Shown in pieces: positions 14,607 through 37,108 of a DNA stretch of 64,000 bases. Position 1 is the first letter of the stretch. Each line of letters starts with the position of its first letter. A program made the position numbers and the translations under genes. This DNA is from Bdellovibrionaceae bacterium UBA2316. GTDB lineage: Bacteria > Bdellovibrionota > Bdellovibrionia > Bdellovibrionales > Bdellovibrionaceae. The stretch covers positions 11,008 through 75,007 of the forward strand of contig DDVI01000089.1 of the NCBI GenBank assembly GCA_002345205.1, read 5' to 3'. The notes under the pieces were generated by a model. That model did no database searches. It was not told the origin of the DNA and worked only from the letters and a program-made list of their open reading frames with translations.

Positions 14607-14654
14607 TCCCTTAAAATTGCGGTTGAGTTTTTTAAAATAGCGGACGAATATAAA

Positions 14655-15395: not shown

Positions 15396-15400
15396 AAATT

Positions 15401-16671: not shown

Positions 16672-16683
16672 AGTAGGATTTAG

Positions 16684-17721: not shown

Positions 17722-17817
17722 TTTATTTAATCCTTTATATTTATGACCCAAAAAACAGATGTATTTGATTTCCAAATAGGTTAGCGTTTTCTTTGAATTG
17801 TGCCCAGGGGAGGGTTC

Positions 17818-20496: not shown

Positions 20497-20498
20497 AT

Positions 20499-21614
20499 TT
20501 GAGTCATTTCAGTAGTGATTTTAACGTTGTTTATCTGCGCGTGGTTCAGGGATGTAATCTGAACTGCACGCACTGCTTTACGTTGGGCAATAAAGATAAG
20601 TACGAGCTAGCAAGCCTAGCGCAAATCACTGAATTCCTTACCAGCATTCGCAAGAATGTAAATCCAAAGGGTGCCGTATTTTATATCCATGGTGGAGAGC
20701 CCTTCTTAGCGCCTAAAGAACATCTTAGAGCCGTTAACGAAATCATTAGATCAACGTTTCCAGATATTAAAATAAATATAATCCCACAAACTAACTTAAT
20801 GTTTAAGGTCGACCAGGAATTTGTAGACTTCATCAACGAAGAATACGCAGGCCACATCGGCGTTTCTTGGGATCATGGTATCCGTTTTCAAACAACGACT
20901 CGGGCACTGGATGAAGACTTATTCTTAAAAAACTTCCGCTACCTAGTTGAAAAGGATATCGAAATGGCCGTCGCCATTACGGTACAGAAGCACCTTTTAA
21001 CCGAAGATCCTATTTCCATTGTTCAAAGACTCGAAGGTGCAAAATCAATTGATTTTGAATTCCTTACGATGTTCGACAAGAAAACGATGGATCTAAAAGT
21101 TAACAATACAGAATGGTCAAAGTTCTACCATCAGATCGTCACTTATTATTCAAATAATAAAACAACTTGGTCACTGCCTCAGGTGGATTTGCTAACAAAG
21201 AGTTACATCGAAAATAAGATTTACCAGTGCAAATGTAACTGCTGTCAGCACAGAACATTTACAATGAATTGCAACGGGACCGTGGGCCTGTGTCCAGATG
21301 AAACTTACGTAGCCCCTATCTCCACAGTAAAAGAAATGGCTAACGATTGGACAAGTTTTAGCACCAAAGCGGAAACTTTATATTTAAGACAACTGGGGCA
21401 AGAAATAAATTCGCTATGTACCCAGTGCGAATTCTTTGATGTATGCGGCGGAAATTGTGAACCGACGTTGTTTTCAGAGAACGACGAAGAATGTCCACTG
21501 TCCAAGCAATCCATCGCATACCAGTTTAATAACATTCAAATATTTCAAAATAAATTACAAGAAGCTAAAGAAAATTTAGTCGAGCTTAGAGAAAGAGGTC
21601 CTTCATGCCATTAA
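20499..21614 (+). CDS. Radical SAM enzyme with complete SPASM domain
   Basis: It has CNLNCTHC, IHGGEPFL, CQHRTFTMNCNGTVGLC (Cx10Gx4C) and CTQCEFFDVCGGNC. The likely start is TTG 20499, 5 nt after GGAAGAAGG; the track has TTG 20457, which overlaps the previous ORF. Confidence 0.9.
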   Translation: MSHFSSDFNVVYLRVVQGCNLNCTHCFTLGNKDKYELASLAQITEFLTSIRKNVNPKGAVFYIHGGEPFLAPKEHLRAVNEIIRSTFPDIKINIIPQTNLMFKVDQEFVDFINEEYAGHIGVSWDHGIRFQTTTRALDEDLFLKNFRYLVEKDIEMAVAITVQKHLLTEDPISIVQRLEGAKSIDFEFLTMFDKKTMDLKVNNTEWSKFYHQIVTYYSNNKTTWSLPQVDLLTKSYIENKIYQCKCNCCQHRTFTMNCNGTVGLCPDETYVAPISTVKEMANDWTSFSTKAETLYLRQLGQEINSLCTQCEFFDVCGGNCEPTLFSENDEECPLSKQSIAYQFNNIQIFQNKLQEAKENLVELRERGPSCH

Positions 21615-22366
21615 AAGCATTACACGAAATTGCACCTGAAAACATACGGAATGTAGGCGTTCCCCTGGCGATCGAACAGATTAAAGAGTTTTTCGAAAAT
21701 AAAAAACTTTTCTTCTTCGTTGATTATGCCCAAAGTAAAATCAAAGGAAATATGTTTCTAACATATCTTTCTAATCTAGATTTACCTTTTGAGATCGTCC
21801 TCAGCGGTGCTTCCAAGCAAGAAACGTTTGATTTAATCAAAATATTTATGGAAACCCGCAATCAAAGCTCGTCCGATATATTAAGACTTACGGTTGCCGA
21901 TATTATTTTAACCCATAAAGGCGTAAACACTGAAAACTGGCTAATGAACCCGGTTTTAAGCAAAGACGATATCAAAGAGTTTATAAGTCAAAATGGCGAA
22001 TTGGTTAAAAAGTGGGATACATTTTTAAGTTCATTAATGATATTTATTTTAAAGTCCTTCACTGCGTTTGAAGAGCAGATAAACACGAGTGAAACATTTC
22101 CTCATTTAAAAGATCCAAATTACATCGGCGGAAACGTCGTGCAATTGTTTGATATACCGTGCTTCTTGGAAATGTTCTTTTCGGTTCCTTATAGCGGCGA
22201 ACTTTTCTATTTCGATGCTCAGTTTGATGAACTTATGTTCAAAGGTAAAAATCTTTTCCATTATTTTTTCTGCCCGGAAAACACCCTAGTTGCTTTTATT
22301 CACGGAGCCGGTTCGGGATCAATTACTCCCGAATTAGCGGAGAAATTTTTTGAGGCTAAAGTCTAA
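21605..22366 (+). CDS. Hypothetical protein (253 aa) embedded in the rSAM operon
   Basis: Both gene junctions overlap (10 nt upstream, TAATG downstream). It has no Cys-cluster motifs. No family recognised. Confidence 0.65.
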   Translation: MPLKALHEIAPENIRNVGVPLAIEQIKEFFENKKLFFFVDYAQSKIKGNMFLTYLSNLDLPFEIVLSGASKQETFDLIKIFMETRNQSSSDILRLTVADIILTHKGVNTENWLMNPVLSKDDIKEFISQNGELVKKWDTFLSSLMIFILKSFTAFEEQINTSETFPHLKDPNYIGGNVVQLFDIPCFLEMFFSVPYSGELFYFDAQFDELMFKGKNLFHYFFCPENTLVAFIHGAGSGSITPELAEKFFEAKV

Positions 22367-23466
22367 TGGATGCCTACTTAGCGTCACGAGAGCTTGCAGA
22401 AGCCTCGCATTTTTATTTGAATATTAACTTTGAAATCCTAAATGGATGCAAATTTAAATGCCGTGGATGCCACGTTGAAAAGAACGCGCAGCAACCCATA
22501 AGCACAGACGAATTTAACGGCCTCTCTAAACTATTGCAAAACTTTGAGCAGAGTTTATATCGACCATTTATCGCTTTCGTGGGTCCGACTGATTTCTTGA
22601 GCGCAGATAATTTTGTCTCGACGTTTGAATCACCCGAAATTATTAAACTTTTCCATCACTTTAAACGCGTTTCATTGCAAACGACTTATTTAGATATCAG
22701 CAAAGCTGAACTAGCCGCAAAGATACTTAAAGAGCACTATTCTGAAATCGAACTAGAAATCAATATTGTCGTCGATCCGGCCCGTATAATGGATGCTAGT
22801 TACCTAAGTATTCTAGAAAAAAATAAAATGAAGTTTATGGAGCTGTTGGAACGTGATGAAGTGCGGACCTTTGGAATTATGAACGTCTATAACTATGATC
22901 AGACTAAAATTCCGGATCTGCTACGCGATTACGATTTTATGCATCAACGTGTTGAACATCTATTTGAAACAACGATTGATTACAATTTCTCTATGGGCCG
23001 CAACAAAGACTTGTCCAATGAGGAATTTTTAGACCTTACATTCCGTATTCGCGACCTCTTCAATAGCTCTATCGTTTCCGATGACAAAGCCGAATACCTG
23101 CGATTTAGCTTTGGCAAGCTCACGGACTCGCTAATCGAGCGCCAGTACAACTATCGCAATGGAAAGCTATACTATTCGCCTTTGCTCTACGAACGATTCG
23201 TTACATTTAAGGATGAATTTGAAGTTCCTGTTACCCAGCATACGGCCCGCGAGATTGAAGAGTACGAAATGAAGGTGCAACTGGAACAGTACGAAGTCGC
23301 CTCCTCTATGGATGAATGTGAATCGTGTACGTTCCTAGGTTCGTGCGTAGACCGAGGCATTTTGTTTCTGATGAACACGTATAAAACTAAAAAATGCCTA
23401 GTAGCAAAAAAGGCGCTATTCGCCGTTAATTCCATGGGGGCGTTGCCCATTAATAATCATGAGTGA
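22366..23466 (+). CDS. Radical SAM-like enzyme, degenerate SPASM C-terminus ('PTD' subtype)
   Basis: It has CKFKCRGC. FVGPTDFL replaces GGE, as ILPTDIF does in 18885..19898. The C-terminal CESCTFLGSCVDRG lacks the fourth Cys and there is no Cx9-15Gx4C. Confidence 0.8.
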   Translation: MDAYLASRELAEASHFYLNINFEILNGCKFKCRGCHVEKNAQQPISTDEFNGLSKLLQNFEQSLYRPFIAFVGPTDFLSADNFVSTFESPEIIKLFHHFKRVSLQTTYLDISKAELAAKILKEHYSEIELEINIVVDPARIMDASYLSILEKNKMKFMELLERDEVRTFGIMNVYNYDQTKIPDLLRDYDFMHQRVEHLFETTIDYNFSMGRNKDLSNEEFLDLTFRIRDLFNSSIVSDDKAEYLRFSFGKLTDSLIERQYNYRNGKLYYSPLLYERFVTFKDEFEVPVTQHTAREIEEYEMKVQLEQYEVASSMDECESCTFLGSCVDRGILFLMNTYKTKKCLVAKKALFAVNSMGALPINNHE

Positions 23467-24511
23467 AAATAGTTTTCTATACCACGTACTAAAAGATAAA
23501 TTACCGATCAGTTCCGAGATCGAGCTGCACCTATTTGATTTCTGCAACTTGCGTTGTACGTTCTGCGGCCAAGATCATGAAAGCAAAGAAGGAATGGAAG
23601 AAATTAGAAACAAAATTCTTCCCGTCCAAGAATTTATCTCTAAAAATACTATCGACAGCCATATTGTTAATATAATGGGCGGTGAAATATTCAATGATGA
23701 AGTTCCCGACCATTTATTTAAAGACTATGAAAATTTAGCCACATCTATTCATGAGCACGCCCAGAGTCTAGGACATCAGTGTACTTTCAATTGGGTTACG
23801 AACCTCGTTTTCAAGAAGTCCCATCGAGTAGAAAACTTATTAACGGCACTTAAATCAAAAGGTATTTCAACGAACCTTTCTACTTCGTATGATTTTTCAG
23901 GAAGAAAAACATCTCTTTGGAAAGAAGACTTATTTAAAGAAAATTTGGAAAAATTCAAAACTAATATTTATACCGTTGGTTTTGTTATGACCAAGCCGAC
24001 CATCCAATTTCTTTTGAATCAAAATGATCCCTATTTTGAATATCTTTACGGCCAATTCCCTATCTATTTTGATTTTTATGTACCAGAAAAAACGGCGCGG
24101 TTTTTAATGCCTTCTGATCAAGATATGCTAGACGCGTACTTATTTTTGGCAAAACGATATCCGAAAGTCAGCCCAGTTAAAGAACTGCTTACCCGCCGAG
24201 AGAATCGCATGACTTGCTACTCCCTGAACAAACTGACTTTGCTGCCATCTGGAAAAGAAGTTAAATGCCGTTATTTGAAATACGAAACTCACGAATTTAA
24301 TAATCCGATCGATTACTCATCAAATGAAAATATCGTTACGGCACATTTGGAAGAAAACGGCTGCCTCAGCTGCGAATGGTTCGAGCGTTGTAGTTTTCGT
24401 TGCTTTGTCCAAGCGGATTGGTCTACTCGCGTGAAGACTCCGGATTGCTTTTTTAAAACGTTTTTCGCAGAAGTGATTGGCGATAAGAATGAGGTCCAAA
24501 CTTGGAATTAA
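23459..24511 (+). CDS. Radical SAM enzyme with complete SPASM domain
   Basis: It has CNLRCTFC, IMGGEIFN, CYSLNKLTLLPSGKEVKC (Cx11Gx4C) and CLSCEWFERCSFRC. Confidence 0.9.
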   Translation: MSENSFLYHVLKDKLPISSEIELHLFDFCNLRCTFCGQDHESKEGMEEIRNKILPVQEFISKNTIDSHIVNIMGGEIFNDEVPDHLFKDYENLATSIHEHAQSLGHQCTFNWVTNLVFKKSHRVENLLTALKSKGISTNLSTSYDFSGRKTSLWKEDLFKENLEKFKTNIYTVGFVMTKPTIQFLLNQNDPYFEYLYGQFPIYFDFYVPEKTARFLMPSDQDMLDAYLFLAKRYPKVSPVKELLTRRENRMTCYSLNKLTLLPSGKEVKCRYLKYETHEFNNPIDYSSNENIVTAHLEENGCLSCEWFERCSFRCFVQADWSTRVKTPDCFFKTFFAEVIGDKNEVQTWN

Positions 24512-25509
24512 TTATTAAACCCACCGAGCTTTGCAATTTCAAATGCACTTTCTGCAGTTCAACTCATTTGGTAGACGATAAACGCACCCAACTGAGCCAT
24601 GAACTCATATTTTCCTTTTTAAAACGCTTTCCTAATACATCTACCATCATTGTAAATGGCGGCGACCCGTTGATGATGAAACCAGACTATTACTGGGAAA
24701 TAATTCGATATTTGGAAGAGCGAAATATGAATACGACTCTTTCCTTTACGACGAATCTTTGGGCATTTTATAAAAATCCAGAGCCTTGGGTAGAGCTTTT
24801 CAAACACCCGCTGGTGGGAATTAACACATCATTCAACTATGGCCAGACACGAAGAATTACCAAAGACCGCGTTTATACAGAGGAAGATTTTTGGAAGGTG
24901 TCTGATTTATTTTTGGAAAAAATCGGTTACCGCCCCTCTTTTATCTCGGTCATTACCGAAGAAAATTTTTCCACTGCGATCGATAATGTTTATTTAGCAA
25001 AAAAAATGAACGTAGAATGTAAACTTAATTATGCTCTAGCCTCTGGTGACCAAGGCTCCTCATTTTTGATGGGTAAAATCTATGAGGTTTACTTGCAAAT
25101 CATTCGGCTTGGACTGACCGAGTGGGAATACAACTCTAAGCAAATTATCAGAAAAAAAAATGCGATATCAACATCGTGCCCACTGAACCGTGCTTGTGAT
25201 GAAACAATCCGATGTCTTCAGCCAGAAGGCGATTATTACAGCTGCGGCGCTTTTGGGGACGATAAACAGTATCCGATCAGTTTCCAAGAGGAAGTCATTC
25301 AAGGGAAAAAGTTTCTTCCATTAAAAGATCAAGCCCCCCTAGCTTATTTAAAAGAAGACTGCCTGACGTGCCCTCTTTTTGAAATTTGCAATGGCTGTAA
25401 GAAAAATATCTCTGATATAAAAAAGTCTAATCGTGTTCAAGAACACTGTTCGGCGATGCAAAAAAATATGATCGAACTCGATGGGCTCGTTAATTATGGA
25501 ATCCATTAG
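24502..25509 (+). CDS. Radical SAM enzyme with SPASM domain
   Basis: It has CNFKCTFC, VNGGDPLM, CDETIRCLQPEGDYYSC (Cx10Gx4C) and CLTCPLFEICNGC (a Cx2Cx5Cx2C variant). The TTG start follows a GAGG. Confidence 0.9.
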   Translation: MELIIKPTELCNFKCTFCSSTHLVDDKRTQLSHELIFSFLKRFPNTSTIIVNGGDPLMMKPDYYWEIIRYLEERNMNTTLSFTTNLWAFYKNPEPWVELFKHPLVGINTSFNYGQTRRITKDRVYTEEDFWKVSDLFLEKIGYRPSFISVITEENFSTAIDNVYLAKKMNVECKLNYALASGDQGSSFLMGKIYEVYLQIIRLGLTEWEYNSKQIIRKKNAISTSCPLNRACDETIRCLQPEGDYYSCGAFGDDKQYPISFQEEVIQGKKFLPLKDQAPLAYLKEDCLTCPLFEICNGCKKNISDIKKSNRVQEHCSAMQKNMIELDGLVNYGIH

Positions 25510-26431
25510 TCTATCGATAAATCCGTCTTACTATTGCAACTTTCGTTGTGATTTTTGCTATCTCAGTGAAGCGCAGTTATCGTCTTCGCAAAGAATTACT
25601 CCGGATGAGTTATACTCACGTTTATTAGAAATTTCGATGCATAGAAAAATCTCGCATATTGATTTATATGGCGGAGAAATTGGAATTTTGCCCAGCAGTT
25701 ATCTGGACCAGATAAAAAAAATAATGCGTTATTTTTACCAAGGCCCAATTAGCGTCATTACCAATTTAAAAGTCATCAACCCTTTTTTTGCGTCCGCGGA
25801 CGTTGATTTATCAGTAAGCTGGGACTACCTTGCGCGCGAAAGCCATGCCGAAGTATATGAAAACATGAAGAAATTAGGTCGGCCTTTCCATGTATTGATG
25901 CTGGCCAGTCGCAAGCTGATCGATATAGACGATTCGTCTCTTAACGTATTGTGGGAAAAGCTAAACGGATTGCCTAATTTGCAGTCGTTAGAAATTAAAC
26001 CGTACTCTAAAAATCCTCATCATCCTCAAGAGGTTTCTTTTATTCAATTTGAAAACTGGGTTAAAAAATGGGTTTCGCAAGTCAATCAGTTTCCATTTGA
26101 ATTTATCAATTTGAAAAAAATAGAAAAGAGCTTATCCGGAAACGTCTCTGCGTGGTCGGATGATCATGTTTATATCACTCCCAGCGGAAAGCTAGCCGTG
26201 CTTGAGTTTGATGCCAATCATAACGAATTCTTTATGCCATTAAATAGTATGGACGAATACTTTGCTTGGACGGATTTAGAAAAACGGAAAATTAACTCGA
26301 ATCAGTATTGCTCTAAATGCGAGTACTTAGGCAGCTGCCTCAGTGAACACTTGCAGGAAGTAGTTACCTTATCTAATTCTTGCAATGGTTTTAAAAATCT
26401 ACTGGATTGGTACAAAAATGAAAGAGCATAA
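25481..26431 (+). CDS. Radical SAM enzyme, degenerate SPASM C-terminus
   Basis: It has CNFRCDFC and LYGGEIGI. The C-terminal CSKCEYLGSCLSEH has His in place of the fourth Cys, and there is no Cx9-15Gx4C element. Confidence 0.8.
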   Translation: MGSLIMESISLSINPSYYCNFRCDFCYLSEAQLSSSQRITPDELYSRLLEISMHRKISHIDLYGGEIGILPSSYLDQIKKIMRYFYQGPISVITNLKVINPFFASADVDLSVSWDYLARESHAEVYENMKKLGRPFHVLMLASRKLIDIDDSSLNVLWEKLNGLPNLQSLEIKPYSKNPHHPQEVSFIQFENWVKKWVSQVNQFPFEFINLKKIEKSLSGNVSAWSDDHVYITPSGKLAVLEFDANHNEFFMPLNSMDEYFAWTDLEKRKINSNQYCSKCEYLGSCLSEHLQEVVTLSNSCNGFKNLLDWYKNERA

Positions 26432-26843
26432 AGTTAAACAATTAGTTTTTAACCGACTTGGCACGTTCGATGATAACTTGAATTCACTAACCTATATTTT
26501 GGCAGAAGATCCAAAAGATATAATCCAGCATGCAGTTGATTACTTTCAGAAGCCTTGCTCTGAATTAATTTATCCTGCGAAATCTTACGCCGTCGCCATT
26601 ATCTACGCACATTTGCTGGAAAAAAACTTCGATGACGAATTCTCCAGTTCACTGGATGATGTCGATCTTTTTTGCGGGAACGACAAGTTTTTTGTTCCCT
26701 ATTCTTCGGACAAGAAGACTTATGATACAATTCTAGAGCGAATTGGATACTCAAATGCATTTGTTTTAAATACTGAATTACCGCAGATTTCAAAAACTGT
26801 ACGGTACTTTCAAAGCGAGTTTCAACTCGAGGTCCTTACCTAG
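26385..26843 (+). CDS. Hypothetical protein (about 141-152 aa), last gene of the rSAM operon
   Basis: The ORF overlaps the preceding rSAM gene. An alternative ATG lies at 26418 (MKEHKVKQ...). No family recognised. Confidence 0.55.
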   Translation: MVLKIYWIGTKMKEHKVKQLVFNRLGTFDDNLNSLTYILAEDPKDIIQHAVDYFQKPCSELIYPAKSYAVAIIYAHLLEKNFDDEFSSSLDDVDLFCGNDKFFVPYSSDKKTYDTILERIGYSNAFVLNTELPQISKTVRYFQSEFQLEVLT

Positions 26844-27544: not shown

Positions 27545-27568
27545 AGTATAAACCTATCAGAGCCGAAG

Positions 27569-28730: not shown

Positions 28731-28857
28731 ATAAAAGATACTTTAGGGTACATTAGCAAGCAAGCGGCCAGTCTAAAAATGGGATCAAAGTGTCAAAATA
28801 TTAGTTTGAAATCAAAGGCGATTGTGTTTACCCTATATAGATGGTGAGGATTTAAAA

Positions 28858-31833: not shown

Positions 31834-32988
31834 TTATAAAGAAAAGAACCATTTTCCACTATCACTGAGAACAAAATTTTCATTCCATAAAGATAGCGCA
31901 TTTAAATATTTAGCTTCCGGCATTTGAATTTTTATCAAAGGTGTAACCTGCCAAGACACACACTTGATAGCTTGGTTTGCAATTACATGCTGCAATATCA
32001 GTCCACGATTTTGCTCTCCCGATTCGTCGACTGGATAACCAAAATCTACAAGATACACGTCTTTTCTTTTCCAATAATTGTCTCTGATCGTCGTGTAGTA
32101 ATTCATTTCCGGAGTAGCACTTCTTTGCCCATCAAAGCCATATAACTGTTCCTCGAACTTCGAAAAATGAGCCCAACCCAAATGCAGTGGATGCGATGTA
32201 AACGCCATGAAATCTAAAGACTGAACTTCGTCCCGTCCCAGGGTGCTCCAGTAGTTGTAGTAATTTAAATGCTCAAAATTAAAAGCAGAAGAGAACTGAA
32301 TTTTTGGATGGTCTTTGCGAGCTTGGTCCAATACAGACCAGAAGGCCTGGGTTTCTTTAGTCCGCGTTTTAGTTCCTAAAATATTATAAAAGAAAAGATT
32401 TAATTCAGAACCAAATATTACCTTTTCAAAGTTCGCTAAATTAATTTTGTTTTTAAAATCTTCATATATTTTTTCCTTAAAAACCGGATTAGAGAAAACC
32501 ACTTTCGATTCAGGATGGTCTTCCTGCTGCTTGGGACTATACTTGGCCCCTACAACGTCTTTGAATTTATCAAACCGATATTTAAAATCATTTATATCTA
32601 GATCATAAATTAAAGCTAATGGAATAGATTCATTTTCAATTAATGAAATATATTTCGTTAAATCGGCTCCACTCTGACTACCTGTCTTTATCACGCAATT
32701 TTCACCTACAGGACCACAGCGAAATGAAACGCGGCTTCGCACGCGTAAAAAAATCCGGCTAAGAGACTTTGAGTTTTCAGATAGAATTGCCTTCAAATTT
32801 TCTAATGAAATCAGATCGGCTTCGCTTAACGTTATGGCTTTCTCGATTGGACCGTTTCTCTTTTCTACTTGCTCTTGAAAATCCGCAGAATCAGCGTTGA
32901 CGTTTGGGGTCGTGTTTTTATAAAGCAGGACCGTACCTAGCGCGACGATAGCGACACCCAATAAAATAACTTTTTTAAATAAATTCAA
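31834..32988 (-). CDS. Hypothetical membrane-anchored/secreted protein (384 aa)
   Basis: It has an N-terminal hydrophobic anchor (LLGVAIVALGTVLLY). No family recognised. Confidence 0.6.
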   Translation of the reverse strand: MNLFKKVILLGVAIVALGTVLLYKNTTPNVNADSADFQEQVEKRNGPIEKAITLSEADLISLENLKAILSENSKSLSRIFLRVRSRVSFRCGPVGENCVIKTGSQSGADLTKYISLIENESIPLALIYDLDINDFKYRFDKFKDVVGAKYSPKQQEDHPESKVVFSNPVFKEKIYEDFKNKINLANFEKVIFGSELNLFFYNILGTKTRTKETQAFWSVLDQARKDHPKIQFSSAFNFEHLNYYNYWSTLGRDEVQSLDFMAFTSHPLHLGWAHFSKFEEQLYGFDGQRSATPEMNYYTTIRDNYWKRKDVYLVDFGYPVDESGEQNRGLILQHVIANQAIKCVSWQVTPLIKIQMPEAKYLNALSLWNENFVLSDSGKWFFSL

Positions 32989-33029: not shown

Positions 33030-33440
33030 TTAAACGCTGACTAAGGTCCAGCCTTCTTTTTTGCCCATAAATTTAAAACCAAAACTCGCATTTTGATCTA
33101 CAAGGACAGGCTCATTTTTTCCCGCAAGAAGTAGGTTATTTGATTTAACAACGGGAGGATTCAAAGTCCAATCTTGCCCCTCATTAATGAAGACGAACGT
33201 TTTCAAATACTCTACTTTTTCCGGCAGAACGAAAACCTGACCTGGCTCTAAGTGGACTACGGTCTCTTTAGAGGCGTTAGTTCGATGACTCTTTGAGGAG
33301 TCGGCTCCTTCCGCCAAAGTGTCTCGATTTAGGTCGGACCATTTTAGAAACGAAGGGAAAACAAAAGATCCAGAGAATACGCTAAAGAAAAATCTTCTTT
33401 TCATACCTTTAGTATAAATGTAGAATATCCAAAAGGACAA
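33030..33440 (-). CDS. Hypothetical secreted protein
   Basis: An internal start at 33404 would give a signal-peptide-like N-terminus (MKRRFFFSVFSGSFVFPSF). No family recognised. Confidence 0.5.
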   Translation of the reverse strand: MSFWIFYIYTKGMKRRFFFSVFSGSFVFPSFLKWSDLNRDTLAEGADSSKSHRTNASKETVVHLEPGQVFVLPEKVEYLKTFVFINEGQDWTLNPPVVKSNNLLLAGKNEPVLVDQNASFGFKFMGKKEGWTLVSV

Positions 33441-34495
33441 TGAATTTCTATAAATCCAATATGTTAAAAAAACCTTATGCGAAAATCACAAAAATGAATC
33501 AAAATGGGATGTCACTGATCCTTGTTTTGATTTTGCTTGGCATTTTTTCCGTAATGTTTTTAGCGGTTAATCGATTGATTTTTTGGAATCGAAATATGTA
33601 TAACGAAATTATTTCGACTATCAATATTGATGATTTGAATTCGCAAATTTATTTACTCTTGCAAGACCGACGCGCTTGTCACAACACATTTGGCGGAATA
33701 AATAGAGGAGCACCGCCTGTTGCCGCAACTACCATCCGAGATGCCGCCAACGTTATCGCATTTCAAACTAATAATCTTTACGTTAAAAATGTGACTCCAA
33801 TCACCATGGCGATAACAAATTTTGTTAGCCCAGTGGTAGGTATTGAACCTTATAATGCAACGTTTGACTTAACCATAAATTATCGAATTCCATTTGGCGA
33901 AAACCAAAAAGACAAGCCACGAACATTCCAAATACGAACATTCGCACCCGCTGGCTGGCCCAATGGTACGCCTCTTTCGCGTACTTCAGCTCCTTTAGCT
34001 GCTATTACAGATGGCTGCGTGTCCGCAGGAGACTTGGCTGAAGTGGGCGTAGATTTAAGCGATCTCATTTCTAAAAATCTTCCCGACCAAAAACTATCTA
34101 ATTTAATTATGAATCCAATTAATGGAGTCACAAGTAGCATCCTGACAGTAAACGGAAACGCGACTTTAAATAACGTCCTTACTGTTTCCGATTCCCGCGC
34201 AAAAGACGATATTACTCCGTTTGAATTATCAGATGCCCAGTGGGAAAAAATCAGGGGCTATTCGTTTTCTTGGAAAGGCAGTGATGCCAAAGATATAGGT
34301 TTCATGGCCCAAGACGTAGAAAAGGTTATACCAGAACTTGTCGACGGGACTCAGGCCGATGGTTATAAGCGCATAAATTACACTGCATTTATACCTCTAC
34401 TTTTAGAATCAACAAAAAAACTAGATGCCGAAAATAAAGTATATGAGAAAAGAATTTTGGATTTAGAAACTAAACTTTCGAATATGAAGGAATAG
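33440..34495 (+). CDS. Prepilin-like N-terminus (no Glu5) + two-Cys pilin-like head + C-terminal peptidase S74-like intramolecular chaperone domain
   Basis: The motif ...MNQNG/MSLILVLILLGIFSVMFLAV resembles a prepilin leader plus hydrophobic alpha-1. Cys residues occur in RRACHNTF and TDGCVSAG. The C-terminus reads ...VNGNATLNNVLTV/SDSRAKDDITPF...GYSFSWK...GFMAQDVEKVIPELV...INYTAFIPLLLESTKKL followed by a coiled coil. The start is uncertain (33440, 33461 or 33494). Confidence 0.75.
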   Translation: MNFYKSNMLKKPYAKITKMNQNGMSLILVLILLGIFSVMFLAVNRLIFWNRNMYNEIISTINIDDLNSQIYLLLQDRRACHNTFGGINRGAPPVAATTIRDAANVIAFQTNNLYVKNVTPITMAITNFVSPVVGIEPYNATFDLTINYRIPFGENQKDKPRTFQIRTFAPAGWPNGTPLSRTSAPLAAITDGCVSAGDLAEVGVDLSDLISKNLPDQKLSNLIMNPINGVTSSILTVNGNATLNNVLTVSDSRAKDDITPFELSDAQWEKIRGYSFSWKGSDAKDIGFMAQDVEKVIPELVDGTQADGYKRINYTAFIPLLLESTKKLDAENKVYEKRILDLETKLSNMKE

Positions 34496-34497
34496 AA

Positions 34498-35535
34498 TTG
34501 AAATACAAACTTAAAAGTTTCCGAAATTCTAAAGGCTTTTCCCTACTCGAAGTCCTTGTGGCTACAGGCATCCTTGCTATCGTTTCTACGTTTGGCGCTG
34601 TCCTGGTTTCCAGTGTTCAGGATTTATTATTTCAAACAAGCCGGGAAACACGTGTGGATGAAGTTCATGCCAATGTGACAATGACACTTGCTGATCCCGT
34701 TTCATGCTTCAATACTTTTTCGGTAATAAACTATACGGGAGCCGCCGTTGCAGTACCCACAATTACTTCGGCTTTTGCGACGCCTAAATACGTCGTTGGC
34801 GGTAACTATTACCAGACTGTAACCATTCAGGGTATGCTGGCTCAAAATTTCGTTTTTGGTGGCGGTTCAGATGTTCCCGCTCCGTTTACTGGCCGTTTTG
34901 ATCTTGTTATAAGTTACCAGTTTACTACTGGTGGTGGTGCGGTTCGCACAGTTAATCGCACCGTAACAGTTAAAACCGCGCCGACTGCTTGGGCGGCGGG
35001 AAACGCCCTAGCCGCAAATCCTATCAGGTGTTCTGGTGGAGCAGGCGTAGGTTTTGGTTTTGATATTCCTACTTATTTACATCGGCATATCGCGGCGGTC
35101 CCGCCGGATGAAATTAAAACAGGAAATTTAACTATGAATGGAGGCGGCGTCACTATGCCCGCCAATTTAGAAGTCATCGGCCTTACGACCATCAACACGG
35201 GGCTATTCCAAGTGTCCGATAAAAGACTAAAAACAAATCTAGCGCCGCTAGCACTTTCATTTGATCAGATCGACAGCATAAATGGCTATGCATTTACATG
35301 GAAAAAGTCCGATCGCCCCGATCATGGGTTTATCGCTCAAGAAATAGAGGCTCAATTTCCAGAACTAGTTGCTAACGATCCAAAAAGAAATACAAAAAAA
35401 ATGCGGTATCAAAACTTGGTTCCAATTTTGGCAGAATCCAATCGAACGTTAAGACATGGAAATCGAGATTTAGAAACCCGCATCGAAGCATTAGAAAAAA
35501 AAATAGAAAATAAAACAAAACACCTAAAGAGGTAA
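34498..35535 (+). CDS. Type IV prepilin-type N-terminus + pilin-like head + C-terminal peptidase S74-like intramolecular chaperone domain
   Basis: It has the canonical N-methylation/cleavage motif KG/FSLLEVLVATGILAIV. Cys residues occur in VSCFNTF and IRCSGG. The C-terminus reads ...LFQV/SDKRLKTNLAPL...GYAFTWK...GFIAQEIEAQFPELV...YQNLVPILAESNRTL. Confidence 0.85.
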   Translation: MKYKLKSFRNSKGFSLLEVLVATGILAIVSTFGAVLVSSVQDLLFQTSRETRVDEVHANVTMTLADPVSCFNTFSVINYTGAAVAVPTITSAFATPKYVVGGNYYQTVTIQGMLAQNFVFGGGSDVPAPFTGRFDLVISYQFTTGGGAVRTVNRTVTVKTAPTAWAAGNALAANPIRCSGGAGVGFGFDIPTYLHRHIAAVPPDEIKTGNLTMNGGGVTMPANLEVIGLTTINTGLFQVSDKRLKTNLAPLALSFDQIDSINGYAFTWKKSDRPDHGFIAQEIEAQFPELVANDPKRNTKKMRYQNLVPILAESNRTLRHGNRDLETRIEALEKKIENKTKHLKR

Positions 35536-35538
35536 GAT

Positions 35539-36141
35539 ATGCAAAAACTTTCATTTCTCACTAATTTGTTAACCCTTGGTAATAAGGCTTCAGCTGCGTC
35601 CACTCTACGCGCATGCAATATAGATGGCACAGGTGGAGTTACCGTAACTCCCGGCGGTGCTGACCTTTGCGTTAGTAATGGTGGTGGTGGCGCTGACGCC
35701 CAGTTTGCGGCTTCTAGAGTTTGGAACGCCGTTTGGAATGATGTAGTTGATTTTCAGTTAGTGTGCGATGAAGTCGTCTACGGAAAATGTTATTTTGATA
35801 CTTTTGACGGCGCAAAGATCTGCCAGTCACGCTGCCAAAAAAGCGTAATCGGTATTGCTTCTGATACGTTCGGTTTCGCCGTTGGCAGAGGCCGCTACTC
35901 AAACGAAGTTCCAATCGCTATCGGTGGCTGGGTCCTAGCATTTGTAGATAAAATTTATGAACCTGGAACTGTACTGACGTGCGATACCAAAGGTGATTTA
36001 ACGGAAATGACTTTAGAAGAGAAACAAATGTACCCGGAACGCATCGTAGGTATTTACAAAAAACCAGAATATGATGAATTCTTTGGTCCCGAAAAAACGA
36101 AAGTGAAGGTCAATGGGCGACACTGGGTTAAAGTTAAATAA
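35539..36141 (+). CDS. Hypothetical Cys-containing protein (200 aa) inserted between the pilin-S74 paralogues
   Basis: The ORF starts 4 nt after the previous gene and overlaps the next by 29 nt. It has a hydrophobic N-terminus, a Gly-rich stretch and 6 Cys. It vaguely recalls phage appendage autoproteolytic (peptidase G2-like) domains, but I cannot support that call. Confidence 0.55.
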   Translation: MQKLSFLTNLLTLGNKASAASTLRACNIDGTGGVTVTPGGADLCVSNGGGGADAQFAASRVWNAVWNDVVDFQLVCDEVVYGKCYFDTFDGAKICQSRCQKSVIGIASDTFGFAVGRGRYSNEVPIAIGGWVLAFVDKIYEPGTVLTCDTKGDLTEMTLEEKQMYPERIVGIYKKPEYDEFFGPEKTKVKVNGRHWVKVK

Positions 36142-37108
36142 GCGAAGAAGCCGAAACGGTTTCACCATAGTTGAAGTTTTAGTCACCGTGGCACTACTGG
36201 GCTTGTTTGTGTCCGCGCTAAACTTTTTTACGCTATCGACTTTCGCTAGCATCAAGATGATGCGCATTGAAAGTTTTGTACGCCTATTTAACGTCAACAT
36301 AGATCAGCTACTTAATTCAAGAGCCGCGTGTATAAACACGTTTGGACCGATGAGTCCCCTTACTAACGGTGCAAATATTACCGCCCTTCGCAATGCCGCA
36401 AACGTCACTGTTTTAACTAATGCGACGGCTGGACTAAATAATAATACTGTCGATATCGTGGGTGCGACGATTGAAAATGTCCAAAATGTATTCCCTAACA
36501 CTCGTTTTAACATCCAAATTACCTACCAATACAATACGTTCTCGCCCGCGCAGCAAATGGTAAAAACGATACCAATGGTAGGTACTATCGATGGCGGCGG
36601 CGGTTTGACTTCATGTGAATCCGCCCGGGGTTTTACTCCGAATGATTTATTCATTCGCTCTGATATCGATGACACGAAAATTGGTGCTTTCACAATCAAC
36701 GGAAATCTAACATTTAATTTTGGGGGGTTTGGTGGTGAAGCACTCAACAAACTCGTAGTAGTCCCGCAAGCGGCGGCACCGGGACCGAACGGAGTGTTCA
36801 TTCCCTCCGATAGAAGCTTAAAAAAAGATATTGTTCCTATCGATATTGGTAAATCAGATTTCAACCAACTTCACTCCTATCGTTACAAGTACAAAGGCAG
36901 TGAGCACTACTCTGTTGGTTTCCTTTCCCAAGAAGTCCAAACCTTTTCTCCCGAGTCCGTGAATGCTCCCAAAAATCAGTATATGGCCGTTAACTACGAT
37001 GCCGTATTACCGTATATATGGGAGTACCATAAACAGGTCTACCATAAAAATATCGAACTATCTAATCGCTTAAAGGCTTTAGAAGCCAAATTTGATAATA
37101 TTAAATAA
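36113..37108 (+). CDS. Type IV prepilin-type N-terminus + pilin-like head + C-terminal peptidase S74-like intramolecular chaperone domain
   Basis: It has NG/FTIVEVLVTVALLGLF. Cys residues occur in RAACINTF and LTSCESA. The C-terminus reads ...GVFIP/SDRSLKKDIVPI...SYRYKYK...GFLSQEVQTFSPESV...VNYDAVLPYIWEYHKQV followed by a coiled coil. Confidence 0.85.
   Translation: MGDTGLKLNKRRSRNGFTIVEVLVTVALLGLFVSALNFFTLSTFASIKMMRIESFVRLFNVNIDQLLNSRAACINTFGPMSPLTNGANITALRNAANVTVLTNATAGLNNNTVDIVGATIENVQNVFPNTRFNIQITYQYNTFSPAQQMVKTIPMVGTIDGGGGLTSCESARGFTPNDLFIRSDIDDTKIGAFTINGNLTFNFGGFGGEALNKLVVVPQAAAPGPNGVFIPSDRSLKKDIVPIDIGKSDFNQLHSYRYKYKGSEHYSVGFLSQEVQTFSPESVNAPKNQYMAVNYDAVLPYIWEYHKQVYHKNIELSNRLKALEAKFDNIK

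What the first reader, a model, noticed from the sequence alone, without database searches (positions are those of the whole stretch)
33440..37108. Three tandem chimeras: type IV prepilin N-terminus and pilin head fused to a phage tail-fibre-type autocleaving chaperone (peptidase S74-like) domain
**Seen in sequence**
- Two paralogues (34498 and 36113) carry textbook prepilin peptidase/N-methylation motifs: G/FSLLEVLVA and G/FTIVEVLV.
- The third (33440) has a Glu5-less version, G/MSLILVL.
- All three then have a roughly 150-aa head with two conserved Cys (C-x-NTF ... C, a D-region-like pair).
- A Gly/Asn-rich strand region follows, and then the block S-D-x-R-x-K-x-(D/N)-I ... G-Y-x-F-x-(W/Y)-K ... 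GF-(M/I/L)-(A/S)-Q-(D/E)-(V/I) ... Y-x-x-(F/L/V)-(I/V/L)-P and a terminal coiled coil.
- The putative cleavage serines lie at 34187, 35215 and 36806.

**Established knowledge**
- That block is the signature of the intramolecular chaperone of endosialidase and tail-spike proteins. It drives trimerisation and then removes itself at the Ser.
- Type IV pilins, by contrast, polymerise helically through their N-terminal helix.

**Inference**
- A pilin-anchored, trimer-forming, self-processing fibre tip, or a minor-pilin complex assembled as an obligate trimer, would be an unusual architecture.
- It could be relevant to adhesion or prey recognition.
- The tandem triplication suggests diversification.
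Basis: partly seen in the sequence, partly recalled or inferred. Interest (0 to 1): 0.8.

Follow-up and report, generated by a model that had tools for sequence, protein, structure and literature searches.

The report
Pilin proteins with phage-fibre trimerising tails
A predatory Bdellovibrio-like bacterium has a four-gene operon: three type IV pilin-like proteins that each end in the self-removing trimerisation domain of phage tail fibres, plus a small phage-appendage-like protein. This probably builds a three-chain pilus tip, and the design is widespread in such predators and already listed in databases but has never been studied.

Summary
**Observation: confirmed.**
- The three ORFs (33440-34495, 34498-35535, 36113-37108) each carry a C-terminal Peptidase_S74 chaperone domain (Pfam E 1.8e-13 to 1.8e-9).
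- Each has a prepilin-type N-terminus. It passes the HMM cut-offs in genes 2 and 4. Gene 1 lacks Glu5.

- A fourth gene, C (35539-36141), lies between genes 2 and 3. It resembles the C-terminal barrel of phage phi29 gp12.
- C is the best-conserved gene of the operon. Its stand-alone form sits next to pilin-S74 genes in 19 of 22 loci.

**Not rare, but unstudied**
- A 2021 InterPro survey counted 29 proteins with this architecture.
- I found at least 122 clusters (50% identity) of such fusions. All keep S-D-x-x-x-K, and 116 have a Cys at mature position 57.
- No member has been studied experimentally.

**An old, ordered set**
- The order "no-Glu5, Glu5, C, Glu5" recurs in six related contigs.

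**Best explanation (inferred)**
- The S74 domains trimerise the three pilins in the periplasm and then cut themselves off.
- This leaves a pilus tip or priming complex like CofB/TcpB or GspI-J-K, possibly a heterotrimer, used for prey adhesion.

No pilus machinery or phage genes are in the window.

The parts
33440..34495 (+). Gene A. Pilin-like / S74 chimera, 351 aa. Leader aa 1-23 ends in Gly (33506-33508). Mature N-terminus is MSLIL with no Glu5 (Leu at 33521-33523). Cys80 at 33677, Cys193 at 34016. S74 chaperone domain runs from Ser250 (34187-34189) to the end; Lys255 at 34202.
   Evidence: ORF. PF13884 E 1.8e-13 and no PF07963 hit. Residues. The orthologous first gene also lacks Glu5 in L001, L005, L006, L015 and L017.
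34498..35535 (+). Gene B. Prepilin / S74 chimera, 345 aa. Leader aa 1-13, G|FSLLE with Glu5 at 34549-34551. Cys70 at 34705, Cys178 at 35029. S74 domain from Ser240 (35215-35217); Lys245 at 35230.
   Evidence: PF13884 2.8e-13 and PF07963 8.3e-7. TIGR02532 2.5e-5. Residues.
35539..36141 (+). Gene C. 200-aa protein with no signal peptide or pilin motif. It has a variable N-terminal part of about 65 aa, then invariant W66-N67-D68-x-A-D71-F-Q73 (35734-35757), then a conserved barrel of about 130 aa related to the C-terminal auto-chaperone barrel of phage phi29 pre-neck appendage gp12. It overlaps gene D by 29 nt.
   Evidence: No Pfam, NCBIfam or PHROG hit. 331 homologues, the 120 best listed 52-100% identical to the query. 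Profile hit to phi29 gp12 residues 657-743, E 0.04, aligned on the autocleavage motif. AF2 pLDDT 82.6. Foldseek hits to 'Preneck appendage protein' (4.9e-6) and 3gqh. Adjacent to pilin-S74 genes in 19 of 22 loci.
36113..37108 (+). Gene D. Prepilin / S74 chimera, 331 aa. Leader aa 1-16, G|FTIVE with Glu5 at 36173-36175. Cys73 at 36329, Cys168 at 36614. S74 domain from Ser232 (36806-36808); Lys237 at 36821. Forms a distinct orthologous group.
   Evidence: PF13884 1.8e-9 and PF07963 8.5e-6. TIGR02532 8e-5. Identity matrix. Residues.
33030..33440 (-). Divergently transcribed 136-aa protein with a hydrophobic N-terminus and no known family. Conserved next to the operon in the closest relatives.
   Evidence: ORF. 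No Pfam hit. Homologues in L001, L005, L006, L015 and L017 at the same position.
31834..32988 (-). Divergently transcribed 384-aa protein with an N-terminal membrane or signal segment and no known family. Conserved next to the operon in the closest relatives.
   Evidence: ORF. No Pfam hit. Only chance-level PDB hits. Homologues in L001, L005, L006 and L015.
17800..26843 (+). Possibly associated set, with weaker linkage than the items above: a row of radical-SAM / SPASM-type enzymes and unknown proteins. The same row is recurrently found beside pilin-S74 genes elsewhere, and in one genome it appears co-transcribed with one.
   Evidence: Radical_SAM hits. In L093 the same row ends directly in a pilin-S74 gene with overlapping stop and start. 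Homologues within 5-10 kb in 8 loci of 9 kb or more, against 19 such loci that carry pilin-S74 genes.

Best explanation
The locus is a four-gene operon (A-B-C-D) of a Bdellovibrio-like predator. It encodes three modular type IV pilin-like proteins whose C-terminal module is a phage-type intramolecular chaperone (Peptidase S74).

**Proposed mechanism**
1. Each precursor is inserted into the inner membrane through its class III signal / alpha1 segment and is cut after the Gly by the prepilin peptidase.
2. In the periplasm the head is oxidised (one disulfide). The three S74 domains associate and template the folding of the preceding 45-60-residue Gly/Asn-rich segment into a trimeric beta-structured stalk.
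3. The Ser-Lys dyad cleaves at Ser250, Ser240 and Ser232. This releases fragments of about 100 aa and leaves mature pilins of 215-226 aa joined at their C-terminal ends.
4. This three-chain unit, with three alpha1 helices pointing one way and a trimeric stalk the other, caps and primes a type IV filament. That could be a type IVa pilus or a type II-secretion-like pseudopilus. CofB/TcpB trimers and the GspI-J-K complex do the same job.
5. Exactly one of the three (gene A) lacks Glu5, in six related contigs. I therefore favour one A-B-D heterotrimer with A as the top subunit over three homotrimers.
6. The exposed stalk, possibly with protein C docked on it, would act as the adhesive tip for prey contact.

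**Shown by computation:** domain identities, invariance of the catalytic motif, Cys pattern, alpha1 homology, operon conservation, Glu5 pattern, fold of C.

**Inferred:** processing by the prepilin peptidase, trimerisation, autocleavage, hetero- versus homotrimer, tip location, adhesion role, any role of C.
For: **S74 domain**
- Present in all three proteins above the curated cut-off.
- The match spans about the last 100-120 residues of each protein in PHROG tail-fibre families. Solved S74 proteins are also hit: 6f45 at 1e-22, MyRF 7dc3 and GA-1 3gud.
- S-D-x-x-x-K is conserved in 122 of 122 family representatives. This argues for a working self-cleaving domain.
- In the Bdellovibrio fibre Bd3182 the same domain was shown to cleave at its Ser, and S782A blocks it (PMC10769870).

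**Pilin module**
- N_methyl and TIGR02532 pass in B and D.
- A deep family profile aligns to residues 1-53 of solved major pilins (TcpA, PAK, PilE1, M. xanthus PilA). The register starts exactly after the Gly.
- Cys counts are even in 121 of 122 representatives, and the first Cys is at mature position 57 in 116 of 122. This fits an exported, disulfide-bonded protein.

**Operon**
- Gaps are 2 and 3 nt, with a 29-nt overlap between C and D.
- The same order, with gene 1 lacking Glu5, occurs in L001, L005, L006, L015 and L017.
- D is a separate orthologous group.

**Precedent**
- The CofB homotrimer and TcpB trimer cap and prime type IVb pili. GspI-J-K forms a staggered heterotrimeric tip (PMC7248040; PMC8179133).
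- That GspK lacks Glu5 is from my own knowledge (Korotkov & Hol 2008).
Against: - No trimer was modelled or measured. No multimer prediction was available.
- The monomer model of B is poor (pLDDT 45) and its fold search was meaningless. The pilin fold of the head is therefore unproven.
- No pilus or type II secretion machinery genes lie in the 64-kb window or in any related locus I read. The cognate filament is unknown.
- Lineages with one or two copies, all with Glu5 (Peredibacter, Pseudobdellovibrio, Bacteriovorax), must work as homotrimers if they trimerise at all. A heterotrimer is therefore not required by the family.
- A and B are not cleanly separated as orthologous groups in the more distant contig. 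Loss of Glu5 may have happened more than once.
- S74 heterotrimers have not been described, to my knowledge.
- Protein C has no recognisable export signal, so contact with periplasmic pilins is uncertain.
Confidence: 0.5

Rival explanations
1. Three separate homotrimeric tips. Each paralogue forms its own S74-templated homotrimer, and each caps a different filament or is used at a different time. This would give the predator alternative pilus tips, as in the 'adaptable tips' idea for Myxococcus Kil pili.
For: - All characterised S74 domains are homotrimeric (endosialidase, T5 pb1, MyRF, Bd3182; PMC10769870).
- Single-copy lineages exist.
- CofB and TcpB are homotrimers.
- Alternative tip complexes are proposed for a predatory Tad pilus (PMC12075869).
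Against: - A homotrimer of the Glu5-less protein A would have no Glu5 in any of its three staggered subunits.
- The fixed order and the one-in-three Glu5 loss in six contigs, together with tight translational coupling, fit one stoichiometric complex better than alternatives.
Confidence: 0.25
2. Not filament subunits. The class III signal / hydrophobic helix serves only as an inner-membrane anchor or export signal. The proteins are periplasmic or membrane-tethered trimeric fibres, for example acting during prey entry or in envelope remodelling, that never enter a pilus.
For: - No pilus machinery genes are linked.
- A quarter of family representatives lack Glu5, which is needed for normal incorporation (31 of 122).
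- The recurrent neighbours are radical-SAM and 2OG oxygenase genes, not pilus genes.
Against: - Three quarters keep the full G|F-x-x-x-E signature.
- The alpha1 profile matches assembled major pilins over 53 residues in the correct register.
- Minor pilin genes are often unlinked to machinery genes (general knowledge).
Confidence: 0.15
3. The S74 module is an effector peptidase displayed on pili. This is the reading implied when the architecture was catalogued as a 'predicted peptidase' module. It would cleave prey or other substrates.
For: Raynaud et al. 2021 list IPR012902-IPR030392 under 'peptidase activity' (PMC8179133).
Against: - Every characterised S74 domain is a single-turnover, self-cleaving folding chaperone that is discarded (PMC10769870; PMC4690869 abstract).
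- Here it sits at the extreme C-terminus, directly after a Gly/Asn-rich stalk-like segment, with the scissile Ser at the domain boundary. That is the arrangement of tail fibres.
Confidence: 0.03
4. Prophage or tailocin remnant. The genes are ordinary phage tail-fibre genes, and the 'prepilin' N-termini are chance hydrophobic segments.
For: NCBI annotates them as 'tail fiber domain-containing protein'. Gene C also has a phage-appendage fold.
Against: - No phage genes are in the window. The flanks are housekeeping genes: SecA, BamE-like, cytochrome oxidase, GlnRS, AcrB.
- Synteny with SecA is kept in divergent relatives.
- The prepilin HMMs pass curated cut-offs.
- The G|F-x-x-x-E motif recurs in 90 of 150 top representatives.
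- GC content is not atypical.
Confidence: 0.02

Closest known systems
Catalogued 'modular type IV pilin' architecture IPR012902 (N_methyl) - IPR030392 (Peptidase S74), Raynaud et al. 2021 PNAS (PMC8179133)
   Same: Same two-domain architecture. It was counted as 29 InterPro proteins and was the sixth commonest modular-pilin architecture. The window proteins B and D are members by both HMMs.
   Different: That paper only lists the architecture and reads the module as a peptidase. It makes no link to trimerisation. It does not note the predatory-bacterium bias, the conserved operon, the Glu5-less partner or protein C. No member has been characterised.
CofB (ETEC CFA/III) and TcpB (V. cholerae TCP): trimeric type IVb minor pilins that cap and prime the pilus
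   Same: A pilin module is followed by C-terminal beta-rich domains that form a trimer at the pilus tip. The trimer initiates assembly and serves as a docking site for a partner protein, CofJ or TcpF (PMC7248040; PMC8179133; abstracts).
   Different: CofB and TcpB have no S74 domain and no self-cleavage, and there is one gene per system forming a homotrimer. No sequence similarity to them was detected beyond alpha1. Here trimerisation would be driven by a discarded phage-type chaperone, and three distinct paralogues are present.
GspK-GspI-GspJ (type II secretion) and the PilV/W/X-type core minor pilin tip complexes
   Same: Three different pilin-like proteins form a staggered tip that primes assembly. 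One of them, GspK, lacks Glu5 (my own knowledge). This matches the one-in-three Glu5 loss seen here.
   Different: There is no homology of the heads, and only weak below-cut-off NCBIfam hits to GspI/J/H. Those complexes associate through their pilin domains, not through a C-terminal trimerisation module. Nothing in them is cleaved off.
Bdellovibrio bacteriovorus MAT (mosaic adhesive trimeric) fibres of the S74 group, e.g. Bd3182 (Caulton et al. 2024, PMC10769870)
   Same: Same phylum and presumed purpose (prey handling). Same C-terminal S74 chaperone with the SDxxxK motif. In Bd3182, autocleavage and its block by Ser-to-Ala were shown experimentally.
   Different: MAT fibres are described with a signal peptide followed by a conserved beta-rich N-terminal domain of about 130 aa. 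The modelled Bd3182 fibre is about 550 Å long. Their surface anchor is unknown. The proteins here are 331-351 aa, with a prepilin N-terminus, a different head, and a stalk of only about 50 residues.
Phage tail-fibre / tailspike intramolecular chaperone domains: K1F endosialidase, T5 pb1, GA-1 neck appendage; also MyRF
   Same: The S74 domain is homologous to them by sequence profile: PDB 6f45, 8jov, 7dc3 and 3gud. It has the same position at the C-terminal end and the same Ser-Lys motif.
   Different: The passenger is a pilin-like protein rather than a long fibre or an enzyme.
Phage phi29 gp12 pre-neck appendage C-terminal auto-chaperone (MEROPS G2, PF11962), for protein C
   Same: The profile alignment is centred on the gp12 autocleavage motif, W-S|D-F-A-E-Y versus W-N-D-x-A-D-F (E 0.04). 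The fold matches 3gqh/3suc and viral 'preneck appendage barrel' models. In metagenomes the same domain ends long fibre-like proteins.
   Different: All matches are weak, and PF11962 is not reached (best 0.11 in 1 of 40 members). Ser is replaced by Asn at the would-be cleavage site and Glu by Asp. C is a stand-alone 200-aa protein with only about 65 residues ahead of the barrel.

Membership tests
Type IV pilin / prepilin (class III signal peptide) | Short basic leader ending in Gly(-1), followed by a hydrophobic segment of about 20 residues | tested here: met
   A...KMNQNG|MSLILVLILLGIFSVMF. B...RNSKG|FSLLEVLVATGILAIV. D...RSRNG|FTIVEVLVTVALLGLF.
Type IV pilin / prepilin (class III signal peptide) | Glu at mature position 5 | tested here: met
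   Met for B (34549-34551) and D (36173-36175). Not met for A, which has Leu at 33521-33523. The first gene also lacks Glu5 in five other contigs.
Type IV pilin / prepilin (class III signal peptide) | PF07963 / TIGR02532 above the curated cut-off | tested here: met
   B: 28.8 bits and 23.9 bits. D: 25.6 and 22.3 bits. Cut-offs are 21.2 and 16.3. A has no hit, so A fails this test.
Type IV pilin / prepilin (class III signal peptide) | Extended alpha1 helix of about 53 residues homologous to that of assembled pilins | tested here: met
   The family profile A6 aligns positions 12-66 to residues 1-53 of TcpA (4e-4), PAK pilin (8e-4), PilE1 and M. xanthus PilA, and to Geobacter PilA-N (7e-7). AF2 predicts a helix at 16-74 of B, at low confidence.
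Type IV pilin / prepilin (class III signal peptide) | Globular alpha-beta roll head packed on alpha1-C, with a stabilising disulfide | tested here: inconclusive
   Two Cys are conserved, the first at mature position 57 in 116 of 122 representatives. Three strands are predicted after the helix. But the model has pLDDT 45 and its fold search was meaningless.
Type IV pilin / prepilin (class III signal peptide) | Cleavage and N-methylation by a prepilin peptidase, and incorporation into a filament | not testable with these tools
   Needs mass spectrometry of the mature N-terminus and analysis of sheared filaments.
Type IV pilin / prepilin (class III signal peptide) | Genomic linkage to pilus or type II secretion machinery (supportive, not obligatory) | tested here: not met
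   No such genes among the window ORFs scanned or in related loci. No other prepilin-type ORF is in the window.
Peptidase S74 intramolecular chaperone (endosialidase CIMCD type) | PF13884 above the curated cut-off, located at the C-terminus | tested here: met
   51, 50.4 and 38.2 bits against a cut-off of 22. Domain starts are at aa 250, 240 and 232 of 351, 345 and 331. 81 of 81 family members hit.
Peptidase S74 intramolecular chaperone (endosialidase CIMCD type) | Catalytic Ser-Lys dyad in S-D-x-x-x-K at the domain start | tested here: met
   A: S250/K255. B: S240/K245. D: S232/K237. The motif is present in 122 of 122 representatives. It is the motif named in PMC10769870.
Peptidase S74 intramolecular chaperone (endosialidase CIMCD type) | Preceded by a segment that folds as a trimeric beta-helix or fibre | tested here: inconclusive
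   A 45-60-residue Gly/Asn-rich segment with conserved K...G-x-L-T-x-N-G precedes the Ser. No confident structure was obtained (pLDDT below 35 there).
Peptidase S74 intramolecular chaperone (endosialidase CIMCD type) | Trimerisation and autocatalytic release of the domain | not testable with these tools
   No multimer prediction was available. Needs SDS-PAGE or mass spectrometry with Ser-to-Ala controls.
Bdellovibrio MAT fibre family (Caulton et al. 2024) | Signal peptide followed by the conserved beta-rich N-terminal domain of about 130 aa | tested here: not met
   The N-termini here are prepilin-type with an alpha-helical alpha1. The paper states that all 21 MATs have the beta-rich domain after a signal peptide. 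No direct alignment to a MAT sequence was made.
Trimeric type IVb initiator minor pilins (CofB/TcpB) | Sequence or fold homology of the C-terminal beta-repeat / beta-sandwich domains | tested here: not met
   Profile searches of the PDB with A2 and A6 returned no CofB or TcpB chain. The resemblance is functional only.
Peptidase G2 / phi29 gp12 C-terminal auto-chaperone (for protein C) | PF11962 hit, or clear sequence or fold match to the gp12 C-terminal domain | tested here: inconclusive
   PF11962 is hit by only 1 of 40 members, at E 0.11. The PDB profile hit to gp12 has E 0.04. Foldseek gives 3gqh TM 0.41/0.50 at E 0.08, and BFVD 'Preneck appendage protein' at 4.9e-6 with TM 0.46/0.52.
Peptidase G2 / phi29 gp12 C-terminal auto-chaperone (for protein C) | Ser-Asp scissile bond and acidic catalytic residues (S691|D692, E695 in gp12; residue roles from my own knowledge) | tested here: inconclusive
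   The aligned residues are N67-D68 and D71. They are invariant in 40 homologues, but Ser is replaced by Asn and Glu by Asp.

The most novel reading that the evidence does not exclude
The three paralogues form one obligate A-B-D heterotrimer. Its assembly is templated by three different S74 chaperone domains that then excise themselves. This would be the first heterotrimeric S74 system. The result would be a pilus-priming tip with the Glu5-less subunit A on top. Onto its trimeric stalk docks protein C, a domesticated phi29-gp12-type fibre module. C or the pilins may be modified by the recurrently linked radical-SAM and 2OG enzymes. In other words, predatory bacteria would have rebuilt a phage receptor-binding tip on the end of a retractile pilus to recognise prey.
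Probability: 0.25. Interest if true: 0.85.

Novelty: new variant of a known kind. Interest (0 to 1): 0.6.

Why it matters
- How Bdellovibrio-like predators recognise and hold prey is an open question. So is what sits at the tip of the pili they need for invasion.
- The 2024 MAT-fibre paper left the fibre anchor unidentified and raised a possible interplay with type IV pili.
- A family in which the pilin anchor and the phage-fibre trimerisation module are one polypeptide offers a direct, testable link between the two.
- It would also show a new way of making a pilus tip. A disposable chaperone would lock three pilins together before assembly. CofB/TcpB and GspI-J-K reach the same result by other means.
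- The module is compact (about 220 aa when mature) and widespread in this group. It could be useful for engineering predator host range.
- Even if only the homotrimer version holds, the 'peptidase' label currently attached to this catalogued architecture would need correcting.

Tried and rejected
**Searches and models that gave little**
- AF2 of protein B with an 8-sequence alignment gave pLDDT 45. The fold search on it gave only chance hits. It is not used as evidence.
- Word-indexed homologue searches with B alone or with a 9-sequence profile found only 3-4 full-length relatives. This wrongly suggested a very rare family. The exhaustive representative search corrected it.
- The first genome scan with a 5-sequence alignment failed for lack of a conserved stretch.
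- Patescibacteria and Gracilibacteria hits (L002-L004) are ordinary S74 fibres with no pilin N-terminus visible in the ORF as listed. I dropped them.
- Look-ups of ten long family representatives returned no organism names. The taxonomic range beyond Bdellovibrionota is therefore not established here.
- The PDB sequence search of the 384-aa divergent neighbour gave only chance-level hits.
- The promoter/terminator scan of the operon found nothing above shuffled expectation.

**Hypotheses rejected**
- Prophage or tailocin origin of the locus. The context is housekeeping and syntenic.
- A Sec signal peptide on protein C. Its conserved N-terminal motif (M-x-K/R-L-S-x-x-L-x-x-I-x-F-G) carries charged residues in many homologues and is absent in others.

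**Literature**
- Searches for Peptidase_S74 with pilin, and for prepilin with tail fibre or intramolecular chaperone, found no study of these proteins. The one exception is the catalogue entry in PMC8179133.

Full report
**1. What is in the sequence**

The region 33440-37108 holds four co-directional ORFs, not three:
- A: 33440-34495, 351 aa
- B: 34498-35535, 345 aa
- C: 35539-36141, 200 aa
- D: 36113-37108, 331 aa

They are packed as an operon. The gaps are 2 and 3 nt, and C overlaps D by 29 nt.

**2. Test of the two domain calls**

*S74 domain.* Pfam Peptidase_S74 (PF13884, cut-off 22 bits) is found at the C-terminal end of A, B and D:

| Gene | Residues | E-value | Bits |
|---|---|---|---|
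| A | 250-301 | 1.8e-13 | 51 |
| B | 240-291 | 2.8e-13 | 50.4 |
| D | 232-283 | 1.8e-9 | 38.2 |

- PHROG tail-fibre families align with about the last 100-120 residues of each protein, E down to 1e-22.
- A family profile hits solved S74 proteins: the long tail-fibre tip 6f45 at 1e-22, 8jov, MyRF 7dc3 and the GA-1 neck appendage 3gud.

*Prepilin N-terminus.* The N_methyl motif (PF07963) and TIGR02532 pass their curated cut-offs in B and D but not in A.
- A has a leader ending in Gly and a hydrophobic stretch, but Leu at position +5.

*Key residues.*
Each is followed by Asp and by Lys at +5.
- Each protein has exactly two Cys. The first is at mature position 57 in all three.

- The pilin fold of the head is not demonstrated. 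The AF2 monomer model had pLDDT 45, and its fold search gave only chance matches.
- What is demonstrated is homology of the alpha1 helix. An 81-sequence profile aligns positions 12-66 with residues 1-53 of TcpA, PAK pilin, PilE1, M. xanthus PilA and Geobacter PilA-N. The register starts right after the Gly.

**3. Organism and context**

- The proteins are identical to MBL7557239, MBL7557240 and MBL7557242 of a Bdellovibrionaceae/Pseudobdellovibrionaceae metagenome-assembled genome.
- NCBI calls them 'tail fiber domain-containing protein'. IMG calls B and D 'prepilin-type N-terminal cleavage/methylation domain-containing protein'. Each pipeline saw one half.
- The window is ordinary chromosome: cytochrome oxidase, FabH-like, SecA, a BamE-like lipoprotein, GlnRS, AcrB, a sensor kinase.
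- It holds no phage structural or integration genes, no pilus or type II secretion machinery, and no other prepilin-type ORF.
- GC content is even across the window.

This rules out a prophage.

**4. The operon is conserved and ordered**

The order A-B-C-D recurs in several related contigs:
- an 'uncultured Bdellovibrio' MAG (L001)
- a Tara marine contig (L005)
- a set of metagenome contigs (L006-L009)
- L015 and L017

In L001, L005 and L006 the operon is again near SecA and the BamE-like gene.

In every one of these, gene 1 lacks Glu5 while genes 2 and 4 keep G|(F/I/L)-(S/T)-x-x-E:

| Contig | Gene 1 N-terminus |
|---|---|
| window | G\|MSLIL |
| L001 | G\|MSMIM |
| L005, L006 | G\|FSIIQ |
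| L015 | G\|SAMIQ |
| L017 | G\|STILQ |

- D-type proteins form a clean orthologous group: 38-41% identity to D of L005 against 19-30% to any A or B.
- A and B are less well separated in the distant contig.

The triplication is therefore old and the copies are kept distinct. That is not the picture of a diversifying tandem array. A divergently transcribed pair (384 aa and 136 aa, no known family) is also conserved beside the operon in the closest relatives.

**5. Protein C**

C is far better conserved than the pilins: 67% identity to its L005 counterpart, against 24-37% for A, B and D.

- It has 331 homologues in the protein collection. The 120 best listed are 52-100% identical to the query.
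- Named sources include Pseudobdellovibrio, Bacteriovorax, Peredibacter starrii and Bdellovibrionales.
- It matches no Pfam, NCBIfam or PHROG model.

Evidence that C resembles the phi29 gp12 C-terminal barrel:
- A 40-sequence profile gives a weak hit (E 0.04) to residues 657-743 of the phi29 pre-neck appendage gp12. The alignment sets C's invariant W66-N67-D68-x-A-D71-F-Q73 against gp12's W-S-D-F-A-E-Y. From my own knowledge, that is the gp12 autocleavage site.
- The AF2 model of C is good (pLDDT 82.6), with a low-confidence hinge at residues 61-67.
- Its best viral matches are 'Preneck appendage protein' and 'Preneck appendage protein barrel' models (4.9e-6 and 2.2e-5; 30 hits at E of 1e-3 or better).
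- In the PDB it matches phage decoration proteins and the gp12 C-terminal fragment 3gqh, all weakly.

Evidence from 79 metagenome loci fetched with the C profile:
- The stand-alone 200-aa form lies within 400 bp of a pilin-S74 gene in 19 of 22 loci with enough flank.
- The same domain also ends 43 long ORFs (272-1774 aa). These have no prepilin-type N-terminal motif (three loose pattern matches aside), look like phage fibres, and have no pilin-S74 neighbour.

I read C as a domesticated C-terminal module of phage fibres, specifically coupled to pilin-S74 genes in this bacterial group. It has no recognisable export signal, so where it acts is open.

**6. How common is the pilin-S74 fusion?**

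The word-indexed searches suggested rarity. The exhaustive HMMER search of 1.84 billion cluster representatives did not.

- 100 clusters score below 1e-30.
- Of the best 150 clusters (the 149 new ids plus P0161), 90 have a canonical G|x-x-x-x-E prepilin start plus a C-terminal S74 domain. Most of the rest are Glu5-less or N-terminally truncated versions.
- Lengths run from about 310 to 900 aa.

In 122 representatives with a recognisable prepilin-like start:

| Feature | Count |
|---|---|
| Phe at +1 | 74 |
| Glu at +5 | 91 |
| S-D-x-x-x-K present | 122 |
| Even number of Cys | 121 |
| First Cys at mature position 57 | 116 |

Carriers with one or two copies, all with Glu5 and all next to a C homologue:
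- Peredibacter starrii, a cultured predator (G|FSLLE)
- Pseudobdellovibrio (A|FSLME and G|FSILE)
- a marine Bacteriovorax (G|FSLAE)

In the literature, Raynaud et al. 2021 (PMC8179133) had already counted the architecture IPR012902-IPR030392.
- They found 29 proteins, making it the sixth commonest modular-pilin architecture. Variants with YadA-head repeats also occur.
- They mentioned it only as a 'predicted peptidase' module.
- I found no paper that studies any member.
- The Bdellovibrio MAT fibres of Caulton et al. 2024 share the S74 domain. They have a signal peptide and a different N-terminal domain, and their surface anchor is unknown.

**7. Mechanism proposed**

Steps supported by sequence evidence:
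- These are exported, disulfide-bonded proteins.
- They have a true pilin alpha1 and an intact self-cleaving S74 domain.
- They are made from one operon.

Steps inferred from what S74 domains and minor pilins do elsewhere:
- After membrane insertion and prepilin-peptidase cleavage, the three C-terminal S74 domains trimerise in the periplasm.
- They fold the short Gly/Asn-rich segment before the Ser into a trimeric stalk, cut at the Ser, and leave. In Bd3182 and phage proteins this cleavage is Ser-dependent.
- What remains is three pilin modules of 215-226 aa tied together at their distal ends.
- That is the geometry of a tip or priming complex, as proposed for the CofB homotrimer, the TcpB trimer and the staggered GspI-J-K complex.
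- The one-in-three absence of Glu5, fixed to gene 1 in six contigs, recalls GspK, the top subunit of the type II secretion tip (my own knowledge). This makes a single A-B-D heterotrimer attractive.
- Single-copy lineages show that homotrimers must also be viable. No S74 heterotrimer is known.

Confidence:

| Reading | Confidence |
|---|---|
| S74-templated trimeric pilus-tip model (headline score) | 0.5 |
| A-B-D heterotrimer sub-claim | about 0.25-0.3 |
| Three separate homotrimeric tips (scored as a rival) | 0.25 |
| Non-filament membrane-anchored fibres | 0.15 |
| Displayed effector peptidase | 0.03 |
| Prophage remnant | 0.02 |

The 0.5 is for the best explanation as worded, which favours the heterotrimer. 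Counted as any trimer state, the tip model holds most of the total.

**8. Verdict**

- Its interpretation needs correcting on three points: rarity, the supposed conflict with pilin biology, and 'diversification'. It also missed the fourth gene.
- The architecture is catalogued but uncharacterised.
- What is new here:
  - the link between the S74 module and pilin trimerisation
  - the conserved ordered triplet with one Glu5-less member
  - the obligate partner C with a phi29-gp12-like fold
  - the concentration in predatory Bdellovibrionota
  - a recurrent neighbourhood of radical-SAM and 2OG enzymes
- I rate it a new variant of known kinds (modular or trimeric tip pilins, and S74 fibres). It is of real interest to people working on type IV filaments and bacterial predation, but it is not categorically new.

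Noticed in passing
window 35539-36141: A 200-aa gene sits between the second and third chimeras and was not in the finding. It is the best-conserved gene of the operon (331 homologues; the 120 best listed are 52-100% identical). It matches no Pfam, NCBIfam or PHROG family, and its fold and motif resemble the self-cleaving C-terminal barrel of the phage phi29 gp12 pre-neck appendage.
   Followed up: yes
window 14049-31832 (radical-SAM genes at 17800, 20457, 22366, 23459, 24502, 25481, 28822; 2OG-Fe(II) oxygenase-like at 14049): There is an unusually dense row of about seven radical-SAM / SPASM-type enzymes with unknown proteins between them. Homologous rows lie within 5-10 kb of pilin-S74 genes in 8 other loci. 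In L093 (GCA_002343545) the row ends directly in a pilin-S74 gene with overlapping stop and start. JmjC and 2OG oxygenase genes flank the module in L006, L010 and L011. This suggests post-translational modification linked to the system.
   Followed up: partly
window 19876-20496; L005 12999-13646: A 206-aa protein just upstream of a radical-SAM gene ends in C-H-A-S-C-H-S-S-C-H-G-A-R-G-R-R. The counterpart in the Tara contig ends in C-H-S-S-C-H-G-S-C-H-G-A-R-G-R-R. A conserved Cys/His-repeat tail next to SPASM-type enzymes could be a modified substrate.
   Followed up: no
window 31834-32988 (-) and 33030-33440 (-): This divergently transcribed pair (384 aa with an N-terminal membrane segment; 136 aa with a hydrophobic N-terminus) has no Pfam match and is conserved at the same position in L001, L005, L006 and L015, with the 136-aa gene also in L017. 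The two genes probably belong to the same system, but their function is unknown.
   Followed up: partly
Loci L021, L024, L025, L044, L060, L073, L091 and others (metagenome contigs): The conserved core of protein C (residues about 53-200) also forms the C-terminal end of 43 long ORFs of 272-1774 aa. Their N-termini look like phage fibres, sometimes two in tandem. They have no pilin-S74 neighbour. This appears to be an undescribed family of C-terminal fibre modules distantly related to Peptidase G2.
   Followed up: partly
Proteins P0183, P0188, P0207, P0211, P0212, P0218, P0233, P0234, P0238, P0262, P0265, P0282, P0284, P0298 (representative search): Many non-pilin hits carry two S74 domains in one polypeptide, one internal and one terminal. 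One 5473-aa protein carries four. Internal self-cleaving chaperone domains would imply fibre polyproteins that cut themselves into several pieces.
   Followed up: no
Family representatives: About a quarter of pilin-S74 representatives (31 of 122) lack Glu5. They have Gly, Gln, Thr or Ser at +5, often in motifs such as G|FSLVGVLVA or G|FGLVQVLV. This is far more than the single tip subunit expected per system. It suggests a distinct Glu5-less subclass.
   Followed up: partly
window 34058-34075 (gene A, aa 207-212): Gene A contains a second S-D-L-I-S-K string 43 residues upstream of the real S74 start. It fits the S-D-x-x-x-K pattern by chance and lies outside the Pfam match. Pattern searches pick it up first.
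   Followed up: yes
L002 6045-6992 (Patescibacteria UBA5124); L003, L004 (Gracilibacteria): The S74 domains closest to those of the window outside Bdellovibrionota belong to short fibre-like proteins of candidate-phyla-radiation bacteria. No pilin N-terminus was visible with the standard code. Gracilibacteria use an alternative genetic code, so the ORF starts there may be misread.
   Followed up: no
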